Source: a virus (lineage: Duplodnaviria > Heunggongvirae > Uroviricota > Caudoviricetes). Taken from it: a DNA stretch of 24,108 bases. The DNA lies in IMG/VR virus record IMGVR_UViG_3300039330_000027. One strand, 5' to 3'. Below the pieces are notes generated by a model that made no database searches, was not told the DNA's origin, and saw only the letters and a list, made by a program, of their open reading frames with translations. The position numbers were made by a program, and so were the translations under genes. Of the stretch, positions 236 through 6,670 are shown in pieces (position 1 is the first letter of the stretch; each line of letters begins with the position of its first letter).

Positions 236-1045
236 TCACTTAATTATTGGATAACTCACACAAGTATGACCGTTGCTTATCGCATACATTTGGTTTCCCT
301 TAAGATTTACAAATGGAAATGTCGTATACTCATAATTTATAGAGGTCATATTAAATGTAAGGAATTTATCCTCAAGTTCTAATTTTGTAGAGTGGGCAGG
401 GTATGTTCCTTCATTTTTCATTGTGATAATAAAACCGATAGGAAAAAAATGTAAAGCACAAATAAATGCCACATGTCCTTCGTTCATAAATGCTACACTT
501 TGAGCGGATATGTGCATTCTGTGTGGGTAAAACCAGTAGTAAATATCATGAGTTTCCTCAAAACTTGAATTTTTACCCAAAACATAATCCTTTAAAGGTG
601 TATAGAAGGGGCTATCTACGGGTTCTTTTTTACAATCTTCAACTGAAGTTGCTGATAGCACGTGCCCAATCATAGCCTTAGTGAAAGATATGCTATCAAA
701 AGGTATTCTAATGAATGGATATACATTCATACCATTCATATATCGACTTAACTGTTCTTTAAAGGACTTTGTTACATTTTCAATTGCAACATCGAGCCCA
801 CCTAATACCTTATTGTTACAGTGGCTGCAAATGGTTCTGAAATAAGAGCCATTTTTAGCATTTAATGGTTTAACTGGTTCCTGAATACCAAAAAATTCGC
901 TAACTGTTTTCTGCAAAACAGGGCCTAAGGTTATGGCGCACTTTGGAGGAACATGATCTTTTGTGAGCAAGCCATATTTCCCACAAATATTGCAATAACC
1001 TTCAGTAATGCCATTGTGCTTCCATCGTTCACTAATTTTCGTCAT
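236..1045 (-). CDS. Hypothetical protein with an N-terminal HNH-like zinc-finger nuclease motif (CxxC...DHxPP...CxxC) and a C-terminal domain of about 190 aa of unknown function
   Basis: 269-aa ORF on the minus strand in a markedly AT-rich block. RBS GAGGGA lies 6 nt upstream of the ATG at 1045. Motifs CNICGKYGLLTKDHVPPKC and CSHCNNK resemble an HNH core. No recognisable phage structural role. Confidence 0.6.
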   Translation of the reverse strand: MTKISERWKHNGITEGYCNICGKYGLLTKDHVPPKCAITLGPVLQKTVSEFFGIQEPVKPLNAKNGSYFRTICSHCNNKVLGGLDVAIENVTKSFKEQLSRYMNGMNVYPFIRIPFDSISFTKAMIGHVLSATSVEDCKKEPVDSPFYTPLKDYVLGKNSSFEETHDIYYWFYPHRMHISAQSVAFMNEGHVAFICALHFFPIGFIITMKNEGTYPAHSTKLELEDKFLTFNMTSINYEYTTFPFVNLKGNQMYAISNGHTCVSYPIIK

Positions 1046-1368
1046 TTTTATTCCCTCAGTAGCATAAGCTATCTATACGTTTTTTAATCCTATCAAAGAT
1101 ACAACTTAACGTCAGGAAAATGATAGTGTTTATCTAAGTAATACAATTAACTTCAACGCGTGACAGTCTGCTTTTCGCTCAAAGCGGACTAGAAGGTTAG
1201 CTTGCGTCGGACTTGGCGTATTTAAAGAAGTGCTGGTGGTGACTGGTTGTTGTGTTCCATTTCTACAGAACAAAATCACAGAAACTATACCCAATAGTTG
1301 TATCTCATCAATGATGAGACAGCCTCATATTTATCAGAACTGGTGTACGTCCAATACAGGAGGTTGTC

Positions 1369-1458
1369 GTGCTGGTTCTCAAATGTGCGCTGGCTATTGC
1401 AGCTGTAATGGCAATTTATTGTCTTGCTGTTGTTCTTATGGATCGCTTTTCTGATTGA
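1369..1458 (+). CDS. Putative small hydrophobic peptide (29 aa, MLVLKCALAIAAVMAIYCLAVVLMDRFSD), possible type I toxin-like membrane peptide
   Basis: GTG start at 1369 is preceded by a canonical AGGAGG Shine-Dalgarno at 1358-1363 (5-nt spacer). The single predicted transmembrane helix ends in a charged tail. Below the 60-aa cutoff of the ORF track. Confidence 0.3.
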   Translation: MLVLKCALAIAAVMAIYCLAVVLMDRFSD

Positions 1459-1612
1459 TTTTATATTGGCGAGGTAACGGGAGTTAAGTAGAATGGCTGC
1501 GGGTGCTTGAGGCTATCTGTCTCAGGCATGAACACCAAAGGCAGATAGAGAAAAGCCCCAGTTAACATTACGCGTCCTGCAAGACGCTTAACATTAATCT
1601 GAGGCTCAATCT

Positions 1613-1825
1613 ATGAACGGCAAATCTAGGTTAGCCTCTTACGTGCCGAAAGGCAAGGAGAAGCAGGCTATGAAGCAGCAAAAGGCGATGTTAATCGCCC
1701 TGATCGTCATCTGTTTAACCGTCATTGTGACGGCACTGGTAACGAGGAAAGACCTCTGCGAGGTACGAATCCGAACCGGCCAGACGGAGGTCGCTGTCTT
1801 CACAGCTTACGAACCTGAGGAGTAA
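1613..1825 (+). CDS. mok: Mok-like overlapping reading frame (N-terminally extended form of Hok, modulator of killing)
   Basis: 70-aa ORF in the same frame as hok. The extension MNGKSRLASYVPKGKEKQA has the same pattern as the remembered E. coli MokC extension (KEKRAMKQ versus KEKQAMKQ here). Confidence 0.55.
   Translation: MNGKSRLASYVPKGKEKQAMKQQKAMLIALIVICLTVIVTALVTRKDLCEVRIRTGQTEVAVFTAYEPEE
1670..1825 (+). CDS. hok: Hok/Gef family type I toxin (small membrane-depolarising peptide), 51 aa
   Basis: Translation MKQQKAMLIALIVICLTVIVTALVTRKDLCEVRIRTGQTEVAVFTAYEPEE matches the Hok/Gef family and, from memory, is essentially identical to E. coli HokD (RelF). Confidence 0.85.
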   Translation: MKQQKAMLIALIVICLTVIVTALVTRKDLCEVRIRTGQTEVAVFTAYEPEE

Positions 1826-1968: not shown

Positions 1969-2361
1969 ATGAAGAAACTTGTTTTAGTCGCAGGTGTAAT
2001 GATTGCAACAGTAATGTTGGGAGGGTGTGCAGCAAAGATCGATCCAGCGTTGAAAGCAGAAGCAATGAAGCCACTAACATGTAATGATGAAAAGCAATGT
2101 GACTTTTATTGGAAACGAGCGCAATTCTGGTTGGCTAATAATTCCTCATGGAAAATTCAAACGGCGACAGACACGCTAATTTCCACTTATAATCCCTCTC
2201 CAAATAGTCCATTCCTCGCTTATCAAGTGAGTAAAATGCCAAATGAAGATGGATCCTCAAGAATTTTCATCAAGCCTTTTTGCGATAATATGTTTGGCTG
2301 TCAACCAAACCCCTATCAGGCAGTTGTTTCCTTTAAAAACTTCGTTAAAACAGGGCAGTAG
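1969..2361 (+). CDS. Putative secreted lipoprotein of unknown function (Cys-rich mature domain)
   Basis: 130-aa ORF with an N-terminal signal peptide and lipobox (MKKLVLVAGVMIATVMLGGC, Cys at position 20). The mature part contains four more Cys. AT-rich codon usage suggests an accessory (moron) gene. Confidence 0.7.
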   Translation: MKKLVLVAGVMIATVMLGGCAAKIDPALKAEAMKPLTCNDEKQCDFYWKRAQFWLANNSSWKIQTATDTLISTYNPSPNSPFLAYQVSKMPNEDGSSRIFIKPFCDNMFGCQPNPYQAVVSFKNFVKTGQ

Positions 2362-6360: not shown

Positions 6361-6436
6361 GGCCCTTTAGCTCAGTGGTGAGAGCGAGCGACTCATAATC
6401 GCCAGGTCGCTGGTTCAAATCCAGCAAGGGCCACCA
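6361..6436 (+). tRNA. ileZ: tRNA with CAT anticodon, most similar to tRNA-Ile2 (lysidine type, ileX/ileZ-like); tRNA-Met not excluded
   Basis: Manual cloverleaf: acceptor ggccctt/aagggcc, D-arm tagctcagtggtgagagc, anticodon loop cTCATAAt, T-arm gctggTTCAAATccagc, encoded CCA. Resembles the remembered E. coli ileX. Confidence 0.8.
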
Positions 6437-6437
6437 A

Positions 6438-6514
6438 CCGCCACTAGCTCATCAGGAAAGAGCGTCAACCCTTTAAGTTGAGTGTGCGAGGTTCGAGTCC
6501 CCGGTGGCGGTCCA
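6438..6514 (+). tRNA. tRNA-like gene with atypical anticodon loop CCTTTAA (probably Lys-UUU-like but with C at position 33); assignment uncertain
   Basis: Folds into a cloverleaf: acceptor ccgccac/gtggcgg, D-stem gctc/gagc, anticodon stem tcaac/gttga, T-arm cgagg-TTCGAGT-ccccg (one mismatch), discriminator T, encoded CCA. The anticodon loop lacks the usual U33. Confidence 0.5.
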
Positions 6515-6516
6515 GT

Positions 6517-6592
<76 letters not shown>

Positions 6593-6595
6593 TAT

Positions 6596-6670
<75 letters not shown>

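What the first reader, a model, noticed from the sequence alone, without database searches (positions are those of the whole stretch)
1340..1460. Unannotated 29-codon hydrophobic ORF with a perfect Shine-Dalgarno upstream of hok
Seen in sequence: AGGAGG (1358-1363), a 5-nt spacer, then GTG at 1369 opening a 29-codon frame (MLVLKCALAIAAVMAIYCLAVVLMDRFSD) that is almost entirely one transmembrane helix with a short charged tail. This is the typical architecture of type I toxin peptides and small membrane regulators, and it is missed by the 60-aa cutoff of the ORF track. It sits about 150 nt upstream of mok.
Basis: seen in the sequence. Interest (0 to 1): 0.45.

Follow-up and report, generated by a model that had tools for sequence, protein, structure and literature searches.

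The report
Conserved prophage small membrane-peptide gene
A real, conserved but uncharacterised 29-codon gene for a one-helix membrane peptide, apparently with its own promoter, sits beside the hok toxin gene in about a third of E. coli genomes, and nothing here shows that it is itself a toxin.

Summary
In detail: AGGAGG at 1358-1363, a 5-nt spacer, GTG at 1369, 29 codons and TGA at 1456-1458.

One sequence does not beat chance, but comparison does.
- The ORF occurs in 1896 of 5426 complete E. coli genomes, in four sequenced phages, and on Shigella/EIEC pINV plasmids.
- Start and stop are almost always kept.
- Changes concentrate at third codon positions (9:5:22). Synonymous changes are enriched only in this frame (S21/N15, p=3e-4).
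- The ORF is two to three times less variable than its flanks.
- A promoter-like site (TTGAAT-17-CATATT) lies 37 nt upstream even where the sequence further upstream is unrelated.
- Two decayed copies have lost the -10, the SD and the frame together.

The module also occurs without hok, so it does not depend on hok.

I read it as a small single-pass inner-membrane peptide gene carried as a prophage accessory unit. It has no Pfam, NCBIfam or PHROG family, and RefSeq annotated it in none of the rows I inspected.

The type I toxin reading is not supported. I found no conserved antisense promoter, no structured leader and no similarity to Hok. It is not excluded either. Translation, promoter activity and function remain untested.

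The parts
1303..1331 (+). Predicted sigma-70 promoter of the small ORF. The -35 position is 1303-1308 (TCTCAT in this window; TTGAAT or TTGAAG in 111 of 135 loci). The spacer is 17 nt. The -10 CATATT is at 1326-1331. The inferred TSS is near 1338.
   Evidence: tabulates the hexamers over 135 loci. CATATT is present in 132, always 36-37 nt before the start codon. It is kept where the sequence further upstream is unrelated. This is a consensus match only; no TSS data exist for E. coli. The equivalent site on pINV shows no TSS in the M90T dRNA-seq table.
1303..1319 (.). Perfect palindrome TCTCATCA-A-TGATGAGA. In this allele it replaces the -35 hexamer.
   Evidence: One search finds a single exact match in the window (0.09 expected). 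The allele occurs in 13 intact loci of 135, and a 14th copy is one of the two decayed loci (L094). Its meaning is unknown.
1358..1363 (+). Shine-Dalgarno sequence AGGAGG, 5 nt before the start codon.
   Evidence: Variants elsewhere are AGGAGG, GGGAGG, AGGAGA and GGGGG. It is degraded to AGAAAG only in the two frameshifted copies.
1369..1458 (+). Small ORF: GTG start, 29 codons, TGA stop. It encodes MLVLKCALAIAAVMAIYCLAVVLMDRFSD, a predicted single-pass membrane helix (about residues 2-24) with the tail D-R-F-S-D.
   Evidence: Searches show frame-specific purifying selection and a peak of conservation. One search gives GRAVY 1.78 overall and 2.7 for residues 6-24. I16, Y17, C18 and L19 are invariant, including in the loci found by BLAST or tblastn rather than by the codon pattern (L137, L138, pINV).
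1166..1302 (.). Conserved non-coding segment upstream of the promoter. It is present in the majority class only. It begins with the hairpin GTCYGCT-N10-AGCGGAC at the right edge of a variable gene island.
   Evidence: Other classes replace it with unrelated sequence, so it is not part of the minimal module. Indels of 15 nt and 1 nt rule out the overlapping 74-aa ORF (1230-1454) and the 54-aa ORF on the minus strand.
1466..1494 (+). hok promoter TTGGCG-17-TAGAAT, starting 8 nt after the small ORF's stop codon. No terminator lies between them.
   Evidence: promoter scan; no terminator found between 1458 and 1500. One search places the start of the hok/sok leader at 1501.
1501..1825 (+). Neighbouring hok/mok/sok locus: leader and sok region 1501-1675, mok 1613-1825, hok 1670-1825. 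It is adjacent to the small ORF, not part of it.
   Evidence: In 109 loci the hok ATG lies 210-213 nt after the small ORF's stop (192 nt in one). In 13 loci there is no hok.

Best explanation
The 29-codon ORF is a genuine protein-coding gene of lambdoid prophages of Escherichia and Shigella. In most alleles it forms a self-contained expression unit: a sigma-70-type promoter (TTGAAT-17-CATATT), a leader of about 30 nt, a strong SD and a GTG start.

Its product would be a 29-residue single-pass inner-membrane peptide. By the positive-inside rule the orientation is probably N-in/C-out, with K5 inside and the acidic tail outside.

I infer that it behaves like a prophage accessory ('moron') gene. 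On this reading it can be expressed from the prophage, and also from the early rightward transcript during lytic growth. I also infer that it acts inside the membrane through helix-helix contact with a host or phage membrane protein, rather than as the toxin of a toxin-antitoxin pair.

Shown here: the anatomy, the distribution, the coding-type selection, and independence from hok.

Inferred: promoter activity, translation, membrane insertion, topology, and the mode of action.
For: Coding:
- Variation by codon position is 9:5:22. S=21 and N=15 against an expected synonymous fraction of 0.30, p=3e-4, with dN/dS about 0.3. Among open reading frames only this one shows it.
- The subset found without the codon pattern gives S=19, N=22, p=0.018.
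- Codon 8 is seen as CTG, CTA, CTC, TTG and TTA, all leucine.
- The ORF is the least variable element of the locus, with nucleotide diversity 0.062 against 0.16-0.19 in the flanks.
- Two copies (L094, L134) carry a 2-nt deletion together with a mutated SD (AGAAAG) and a mutated -10 (TGTATT). The whole expression unit has decayed together.
- The pINV copy is 19% diverged in DNA. It has no indel, only 1 of 17 changes falls at a second codon position, and it has gained an ATG start.

Independent unit:
- The promoter hexamers, spacing, SD and ORF are kept across at least five unrelated upstream contexts and three downstream contexts: hok, a convergent DUF1971 gene, and icsP.
- The ORF's end is the same in all of them, so a junction did not create it.

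Membrane peptide: about 23 consecutive hydrophobic residues, and GRAVY 2.7 over residues 6-24.

Spread:
- 1896 of 5426 complete E. coli genomes.
- Phages Tritos, Evi, mEp460_ev081 and HannyBb.
- E. albertii, E. ruysiae and Shigella.
- 143 plasmid records, of which about 135 are Shigella/EIEC pINV copies at 60-80% identity.

Against a toxin role: see the rival explanations.
Against: - No direct evidence of transcription or translation was available.
- In the only TSS data I could read (Shigella M90T pWR100, PMC7132871 Table S3), no minus-strand TSS lies at the predicted position (about 91027). The nearest same-strand TSS upstream is 91318. That copy sits in the icsP upstream region, which is reported to be H-NS-silenced, so it may not be representative.
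- In this window the -35 is TCTCAT, a poor match.
- In BL21 the promoter is deleted altogether.
- All copies are at least about 79% identical at the protein level, and HMMER found no distant relatives among 1.84 billion representatives. The family is therefore young, and the selection signal rests on few substitutions.
- Variable residues do not cluster significantly on one helix face (p=0.29), so nothing specifically supports a helix-helix interface.
- No partner and no phenotype is known.
Confidence: 0.5

Rival explanations
1. It is the toxin of a new type I toxin-antitoxin system. On this reading a membrane-depolarising peptide is held in check by an undetected antisense or trans-acting small RNA.
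For: - Its size (29 aa), hydrophobicity and charged C-terminal tail resemble TisB, ZorO, DinQ and ShoB. They meet the peptide criteria of Fozo et al. 2010 (PMC2887945).
- It lies in a prophage next to another type I locus.
- A minus-strand promoter-like site (TTAACT-18-TAAAAT, 1487-1458) would drive an RNA antisense to the ORF in this window.
- The SD can pair with CCUUUCUG at codons 26-29 in 96.6% of alignment cells.
Against: - The antisense -10 is TAAAAT only in this allele group. It is TGAAAT or TGTAAT elsewhere, and its -35 lies in sequence that is absent from the no-hok class and changed on pINV.
- The minimal shared module is about 160 nt and holds no other minus-strand promoter match.
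- No Rfam family matches, even at E<=10.
- The inferred leader is only about 30 nt, and the transcript folds no better than shuffles (z=0.00).
- The SD/anti-SD helix has three G-U pairs, no compensatory change, and does not beat its shuffle control.
- Synonymous variation is spread along the whole ORF, so there is no sign of a second, RNA-level constraint.
- There is no tandem duplication.
- The intergenic distances (323 nt upstream, 155 nt downstream) are below the >400/>250 nt used by Fozo et al..
- A decent promoter plus a perfect SD with no visible brake is hard to reconcile with a lethal product.
Confidence: 0.2
2. It works together with hok. One version makes it the first cistron of a longer transcript that reads through the hok promoter and so modulates hok/sok expression. 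The other makes it a membrane peptide that modulates or neutralises Hok.
For: - The stop codon lies 8 nt from the hok -35.
- No terminator was found between the ORF and hok.
- The hok ATG sits at a fixed 210-213 nt after the stop in 108 of 109 hok-linked loci.
Against: - Thirteen loci (the ERLSD class) keep an intact ORF, SD and promoter with no hok downstream. They have a convergent DUF1971 gene and a terminator hairpin instead.
- pINV keeps the ORF intact while hok is reduced to about 85 nt of decayed leader.
- Conversely, hok-region matches occur in 4968 genomes but the ORF in only 1896.
- The well-studied R1 hok/sok locus needs no such ORF (established knowledge).
- There is no sequence similarity between the two loci or the two peptides.
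Confidence: 0.1
3. It is a recently arisen or hitch-hiking ORF with no function of its own. On this reading it is conserved only because the prophage module spread recently.
For: - The family is confined to Escherichia and Shigella, and all copies are at least about 79% identical.
- A 29-codon frame can stay open by chance over such short divergence.
- No TSS was seen at the pINV copy.
- RefSeq annotated it in none of the rows inspected.
Against: - Frame-specific excess of synonymous change.
- The ORF is two to three times less variable than the adjacent promoter, leader and 3' flank in the same sequences.
- The start, the SD and the promoter spacing are retained across unrelated contexts.
- Only 2 of 135 loci carry a frameshift, and both have also lost the SD and the -10.
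Confidence: 0.13
4. The conserved element is a DNA or RNA signal rather than a peptide, for example an upstream element of the hok promoter or a structured RNA.
For: It lies immediately next to the hok promoter, and an SD/anti-SD pairing is possible.
Against: - Variation has a three-base periodicity, which DNA or RNA signals do not produce.
- There is no stable or covarying structure.
- The element is conserved where hok is absent.
Confidence: 0.04

Closest known systems
Short type I toxins of E. coli (TisB 29 aa, ZorO 29 aa, DinQ 27 aa, ShoB 26 aa)
   Same: Length, one hydrophobic helix, a short polar or charged C-terminus, a stand-alone small gene, and frequent omission from annotation.
   Different: - No detectable antitoxin RNA gene.
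- The inferred leader is short and unstructured, whereas zorO, tisB and dinQ have long, folded and processed 5' UTRs (my own knowledge of those systems).
- The tail is acidic rather than basic.
- There is no sequence similarity.
- Toxicity is untested.
Small single-pass membrane proteins that modulate larger membrane proteins (MgtS 31 aa, PmrR 29 aa, KdpF 29 aa, AcrZ 49 aa, CydX 37 aa)
   Same: Size, one transmembrane helix, ordinary SD-dependent translation, no antisense control, and omission from automatic annotation.
   Different: Those are chromosomal core or regulon genes with known partners. This one is mobile (prophage and plasmid), restricted to Escherichia and Shigella, and has no known partner or inducing signal.
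Lambdoid prophage 'morons' (accessory transcription units such as lambda bor and lom, or HK97 gp15)
   Same: An extra gene with an apparent promoter of its own, inserted between conserved phage genes in the replication-to-Q interval. It is present or absent among otherwise related phages and lies next to other accessory genes (hok, a lipoprotein gene, defence-like genes).
   Different: It is much smaller than described morons. It has no terminator of its own in the hok context. Expression from the repressed prophage has not been shown.
Hok/Gef family with mok and sok (its immediate neighbour)
   Same: A hydrophobic membrane peptide gene in the same prophage segment.
   Different: - No DNA or protein similarity beyond composition (peptide score reached by 213 of 1000 shuffles).
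- No mok-like overlapping frame.
- No sok match.
- No fbi/tac-type long-range repeat.

Membership tests
Type I toxin-antitoxin system | Small (<60 aa) hydrophobic peptide with a predicted transmembrane stretch | tested here: met
   29 aa, with residues 2-24 almost all I/V/L/A/M/C. This satisfies the rule of Fozo et al. 2010 of at least 10 hydrophobic residues in 15.
Type I toxin-antitoxin system | An antisense or partly complementary small RNA gene (the antitoxin) at the locus | tested here: not met
   - The one minus-strand promoter-like site (1487-1458) is not conserved across the hok, no-hok and pINV contexts.
- No Rfam match at E<=10.
- Only short, chance-level complementarities within 850 nt.

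Sequence analysis cannot exclude an unrecognised RNA.
Type I toxin-antitoxin system | Toxin mRNA with a long, structured 5' UTR or a long-range fold that blocks the RBS | tested here: not met
   The inferred leader is about 30 nt. The fold of 1337-1500 has z=0.00. The consensus SD/anti-SD helix is weak and shows no covariation.
Type I toxin-antitoxin system | Growth arrest or membrane damage on overexpression, relieved by the RNA | not testable with these tools
   Needs an experiment.
Type I toxin-antitoxin system | Large flanking intergenic spaces (>400 nt upstream, >250 nt downstream) or tandem duplication (search heuristics of Fozo et al. 2010) | tested here: not met
   323 nt to the upstream gene (1045) and 155 nt to mok (1613). 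There is one copy per locus.
Hok/Gef family | Sequence similarity to Hok, with the mok/sok/fbi regulatory anatomy | tested here: not met
   The local DNA alignment scores below the shuffle mean. The peptide score of 28 is reached by 213 of 1000 shuffles. Rfam's sok model hits only 1501-1675. No Pfam hit.
Prophage moron (independent accessory transcription unit) | Own promoter upstream of the gene | tested here: inconclusive
   TTGAAT or TTGAAG, 17 nt, CATATT is conserved in position across unrelated contexts. It is only a consensus match. It is weak in this window (TCTCAT). No TSS was seen at the pINV copy.
Prophage moron (independent accessory transcription unit) | Own terminator downstream | tested here: not met
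   No terminator lies between the stop codon (1458) and the hok promoter. The first one downstream is hok's. In the no-hok class a hairpin shared with the convergent gene lies about 150 nt downstream.
Prophage moron (independent accessory transcription unit) | Present or absent between conserved genes of related phages | tested here: met
   Always found between the replication/DUF977 genes and the DUF968/RusA/Q or DUF1367 genes. Present in 35% of E. coli genomes and absent from K-12 and O157 hok loci.
Any curated protein family (Pfam, NCBIfam, PHROGs, PADLOC) | Significant profile match | tested here: not met
   The best E-values are 0.04-0.7, to unrelated hydrophobic models. There are no PADLOC or Pfam hits.

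The most novel reading that the evidence does not exclude
The peptide may be a new, narrowly distributed membrane-active effector carried by lambdoid prophages. Two versions are not excluded.
- It is a type I-like toxin whose controlling RNA escapes sequence-based detection.
- It is a Hok-linked peptide that tunes killing or phage exclusion at the edge of a prophage defence-gene hotspot.

In either case its relic on the Shigella virulence plasmid could contribute transcription or a peptide within the H-NS/VirB-controlled icsP upstream region.
Probability: 0.15. Interest if true: 0.6.

Novelty: new member of a known kind. Interest (0 to 1): 0.4.

Why it matters
About a third of sequenced E. coli strains, several temperate phages and the Shigella/EIEC invasion plasmid carry this gene. 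RefSeq annotated it in none of the rows I inspected, and no family database contains it.

It is a concrete example of a small prophage membrane protein that length cut-offs hide. Comparative genomics makes it testable: the start codon, the promoter and natural knock-out alleles are all defined here.

If it affects membrane physiology, phage exclusion, Hok activity or icsP regulation, that would matter for prophage biology and for Shigella virulence-plasmid studies, which routinely use this upstream region in reporter constructs.

If it proves to be just another small membrane peptide of modest effect, the result is ordinary.

Tried and rejected
1. Tandem, degenerate copy of hok. Rejected: no DNA or protein similarity beyond chance, and no weak sok hit.
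2. The overlapping 74-aa ORF (1230-1454, +1 frame), the 36-aa ORF (1298-1408) and the minus-strand ORFs as the real gene. Rejected. dN/dS is 1 or higher in those frames, indels and unrelated upstream classes break them, and no open minus-strand frame spans the region.
3. Truncated 5' end of a longer gene cut by the hok insertion. Rejected. The ORF ends at the same TGA, with about 10 nt of shared 3' sequence, in the hok, no-hok and pINV contexts. The longer database proteins are only N-terminal over-extensions.
4. A conserved helix face pointing to a binding interface. Not significant (p=0.29), so I dropped it.
5. A 5' UTR/codon 5-9 stem from the single-sequence fold. It is not kept in other alleles and is absent from the consensus fold.
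6. An SD/anti-SD long-range helix. It is compatible with the alignment but has no covariation, so it stays undecided.
7. Literature. The peptide string appears in no paper. The small-membrane-protein hits in the CFT073 Ribo-seq preprint are different ORFs. Pro-SMP finder mentions only HokD.
I used degenerate DNA patterns, tblastn and a 30-aa HMMER query instead.
9. PADLOC and Pfam on the neighbouring 269-aa and 130-aa ORFs gave nothing.

Full report
**1. The observation**

Reading the window and listing its ORFs confirms every coordinate. AGGAGG is at 1358-1363, followed by five bases (TTGTC) and GTG at 1369. The 29 codons read MLVLKCALAIAAVMAIYCLAVVLMDRFSD, and TGA is at 1456-1458. The mok frame starts at 1613, hok at 1670, and Rfam's sok/hok-leader model matches 1501-1675.

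The hok promoter TTGGCG-17-TAGAAT (1466-1494) begins 8 nt after the small ORF's stop, and no terminator lies between them.

Taken alone, the pattern is not beyond chance. The window has four cases of 'AGGAGG + start + ORF of at least 25 aa', against 1.5 in shuffles.

**2. Context**

The window is the right arm of a lambdoid prophage of E. coli. In order it holds:
- a 269-aa ORF on the minus strand (236-1045);
- the small ORF and hok;
- a lipoprotein-like ORF (1969-2361);
- DUF968, RusA and Q;
- four tRNAs;
- lysis and morphogenesis genes.

RefSeq annotates nothing under the small ORF in any listed row. Some GenBank and Prokka records call it 'hypothetical' or 'membrane protein', for example REL606 ACT39199.1, BL21 ACT43394.1 and pWR100 CP037924_00134.

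**3. Distribution**

- A 110-nt query covering the SD and ORF matches 1927 of 5426 complete E. coli genomes, 1896 of them over at least 80% of its length.
- A degenerate codon pattern found the ORF in E. albertii, E. ruysiae and Shigella, and in three MAG contigs assigned to other genera (Collinsella, Ca. Scatousia, Haemophilus), which may be mis-binned. This was among 185,579 species representatives. The same pattern found more than 120 IMG/VR contigs.
- tblastn found it in phages Tritos, Evi, mEp460_ev081 and HannyBb.
- tblastn also found it in 143 plasmid records. About 135 of these are Shigella/EIEC pINV copies at 60-80% identity (79% in those listed).
- HMMER against 1.84 billion representatives found only relatives at 83-93% identity, plus one 35%-identical hydrophobic match.
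- It matches no Pfam, NCBIfam, PHROG or PADLOC model.

The family is real but young and narrow.

**4. Is it coding?**

From 135 loci I obtained 31 ORF haplotypes and 20 peptide variants.

Integrity of the frame:
- GTG is the start in every prophage copy, and ATG on pINV.
- The stop is kept in all but two copies. One has a point change that adds 2 aa. One has a 10-nt deletion that adds 6 aa.
- Only L094 and L134 carry a frameshift. Both also have the SD changed to AGAAAG and the -10 changed to TGTATT.

Pattern of substitution:
- Variation by codon position is 9:5:22.
- Scoring each variant in the consensus codon gives S=21 and N=15, against an expected synonymous fraction of 0.30 (p=3e-4, dN/dS about 0.3).
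- The other two plus-strand frames give dN/dS of 1 or higher.
- Only the complementary frame that shares wobble positions shows a weaker echo, and it is not open.
- Excluding the ten codons constrained by my search pattern gives S=18 and N=13 (p=0.003).
- Using only the sequences found by BLAST or tblastn gives S=19 and N=22 (p=0.018).

The ORF is also the conservation peak of the locus. It has 38% variable sites (diversity 0.062), against 68-88% (0.16-0.19) in the promoter, leader, SD spacer, 3' flank and hok leader. Two caveats apply. Part of the ORF was fixed by the search pattern, and some flank columns mix non-homologous classes.

The pINV copy differs at 17 of 90 bases, with no indel and only one change at a second codon position.

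I conclude with about 80% confidence that this is a protein-coding gene under moderate purifying selection.

**5. The expression unit**

Aligning the upstream sequences shows several unrelated classes. All converge about 65 nt before the start codon on the same motif: TTGAAT or TTGAAG (111 of 135 loci), 17 nt, then CATATT (132 of 135), then 36-37 nt to the start. This looks like a sigma-70 promoter that would give a leader of about 30 nt.

There are exceptions.
- In this window's allele (13 intact loci, plus the decayed L094) the -35 is TCTCAT. This creates a perfect palindrome, TCTCATCA-A-TGATGAGA, at 1303-1319.
- In BL21 a deletion fuses the region to the end of a DUF977 gene and removes the promoter.

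In a lambdoid phage the ORF also lies in the early rightward operon, so lytic transcription needs no promoter of its own. That point rests on established lambda biology and is an inference here.

The only TSS data I could read concern the pINV copy. In M90T Table S3 (PMC7132871), minus-strand TSSs lie at 90709 and 90726 (icsP) and at 91318. None lies near the predicted 91027. Promoter activity is therefore unproven.

**6. Relation to hok**

- In 109 loci the hok ATG follows the stop, at 210-213 nt in all but one. In 13 loci, all with the C-terminus ERLSD, there is no hok. Those loci have a convergent DUF1971 gene with a hairpin terminator instead.
- On pINV only about 85 nt of decayed hok leader remain, followed by the AT-rich icsP upstream region.
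- Conversely, hok-region matches occur in 4968 genomes and the ORF in only 1896.
- The two loci and the two peptides share no similarity beyond composition.

The ORF is therefore an independent module that usually travels with hok.

**7. Toxin or not?**

In favour: its size, hydrophobicity, charged tail and location.

Against:
- The single minus-strand promoter-like site (1487-1458) is not conserved across contexts.
- Rfam finds nothing at E<=10.
- The putative transcript folds no better than shuffles (z=0.00).
- The consensus fold offers only a 7-bp SD/anti-SD helix with three G-U pairs. It is compatible in 96.6% of alignment cells but shows no compensatory change and does not beat its shuffle control.
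- There is no tandem duplication.
- The flanking spaces are shorter than the type I heuristics of Fozo et al..

A good promoter and a perfect SD with no visible brake argue for a product that is tolerated at native levels. I therefore prefer 'small membrane peptide, prophage accessory gene' (0.5) over 'type I toxin' (0.2). The remaining alternatives are a hok-linked function (0.1), a functionless hitch-hiker (0.13) and a DNA/RNA signal (0.04).

**8. The peptide**

Residues 2-24 form one hydrophobic stretch (GRAVY 2.7 for residues 6-24).
- I16, Y17, C18 and L19, and the terminal D, are invariant, including in copies not selected by the pattern.
- C6 is invariant in prophages but is G on pINV.
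- K5 and the tail [D/E/N][R/H][L/F][S/T]D are nearly invariant.
- The charge distribution is +1 on the N side and net negative on the C side. By the positive-inside rule this suggests N-in/C-out. That is an inference.
- Variable positions do not cluster significantly on one helix face (p=0.29).

**9. Novelty and verdict**

This is a new, uncharacterised member of a familiar kind: the short single-helix membrane peptides that annotation misses. Its toxin interpretation is not supported. Interest is moderate. The gene is widespread, well defined and easy to test, but nothing about it is mechanistically surprising so far.

Noticed in passing
L139 3001-3090 (pWR100 NZ_CP037924.1, complement 90908-90997): The Shigella/EIEC invasion plasmid pINV carries an intact copy of the peptide gene, 79% identical. 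It has an ATG start and reads MLVLKGTLAIAAVMTIYCLIVVLMERFSD, with the same promoter and SD. Only about 85 nt of decayed hok leader follow. The copy lies about 200-290 nt upstream of the icsP transcription start, inside the region used for H-NS/VirB studies. M90T dRNA-seq lists no TSS at the predicted site; the nearest same-strand TSS upstream is 91318.
   Followed up: partly
window 1303-1319: A perfect 8+1+8 palindrome, TCTCATCA-A-TGATGAGA, replaces the -35 hexamer (TTGAAT) of the small ORF's promoter in this allele (13 intact loci of 135). It takes about four coordinated base changes relative to the common allele. It could be an operator or a hairpin.
   Followed up: partly
window 236-1045 (-) and the corresponding position in L002, L008, L009, L137: The slot immediately left of the module is a variable island. 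Here it holds a 269-aa ORF (phrog_21495, no Pfam or PADLOC hit, Cys-rich N-terminus CNICGK...DHVPPKC). Elsewhere it holds a SIR2 protein, a DUF262 + AAA ATPase + hypothetical trio, QueH + a methyltransferase fragment, or an alpha/beta hydrolase. It looks like a prophage defence or accessory hotspot.
   Followed up: partly
window 1166-1200: The conserved segment starts with a hairpin, GTCYGCT-N10-AGCGGAC, exactly where homology with other prophages begins. A second hairpin follows in some alleles (AGCCAAC-TAAAAT-GTTGGCT). They may be a recombination boundary or a terminator for the island genes.
   Followed up: no
L138 2273-2356: Loci with a different upstream class carry another unannotated 27-codon hydrophobic ORF (MTWPEAFTTVGIAMAVALVVYSICRWG). 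Its ATG overlaps the stop of the preceding gene (ATGA). It lies about 160 nt upstream of the small ORF and is followed by a GC-rich hairpin.
   Followed up: no
window 1357-1363 with 1447-1454: The SD (CAGGAGG) can pair with CCUUUCUG/CUUUUCUG at codons 26-29 of the same ORF. The pairing is possible in 96.6% of alignment cells but has no compensatory change. It could contribute to the conservation of the C-terminal tail.
   Followed up: yes
window 1518-1529 and 1863-1874: A direct repeat, TGTCTCAGGCAT / TGTGTCAGGCAT, lies near the 5' and 3' ends of the hok transcript, where hok mRNAs carry their long-range pairing elements. Together with the mok frame and the full sok match, it suggests this hok locus is complete, unlike K-12 hokD.
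   Followed up: no
window 1969-2361: A 130-aa ORF with a lipoprotein-type signal (MKKLVLVAGVMIATVMLGGC) follows hok. It matches phrog_16082 and has no Pfam hit. In other prophages this slot holds rem and/or a 92-aa hypothetical protein.
   Followed up: partly
window 6361-6670: Four tightly packed tRNA genes (Met-CAT, Lys-TTT, Thr-TGT, Gly-TCC) lie downstream of the Q antiterminator region. The closest E. coli relative (L001) has Ile and Arg tRNAs at the same place.
   Followed up: no
L003 2704-3063 (BL21): In E. coli B strains a deletion joins a shortened DUF977 gene to the small ORF region. The DUF977 CDS then overlaps the small ORF's start by about 40 nt in another frame, and the ORF has lost its own promoter.
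   Followed up: partly
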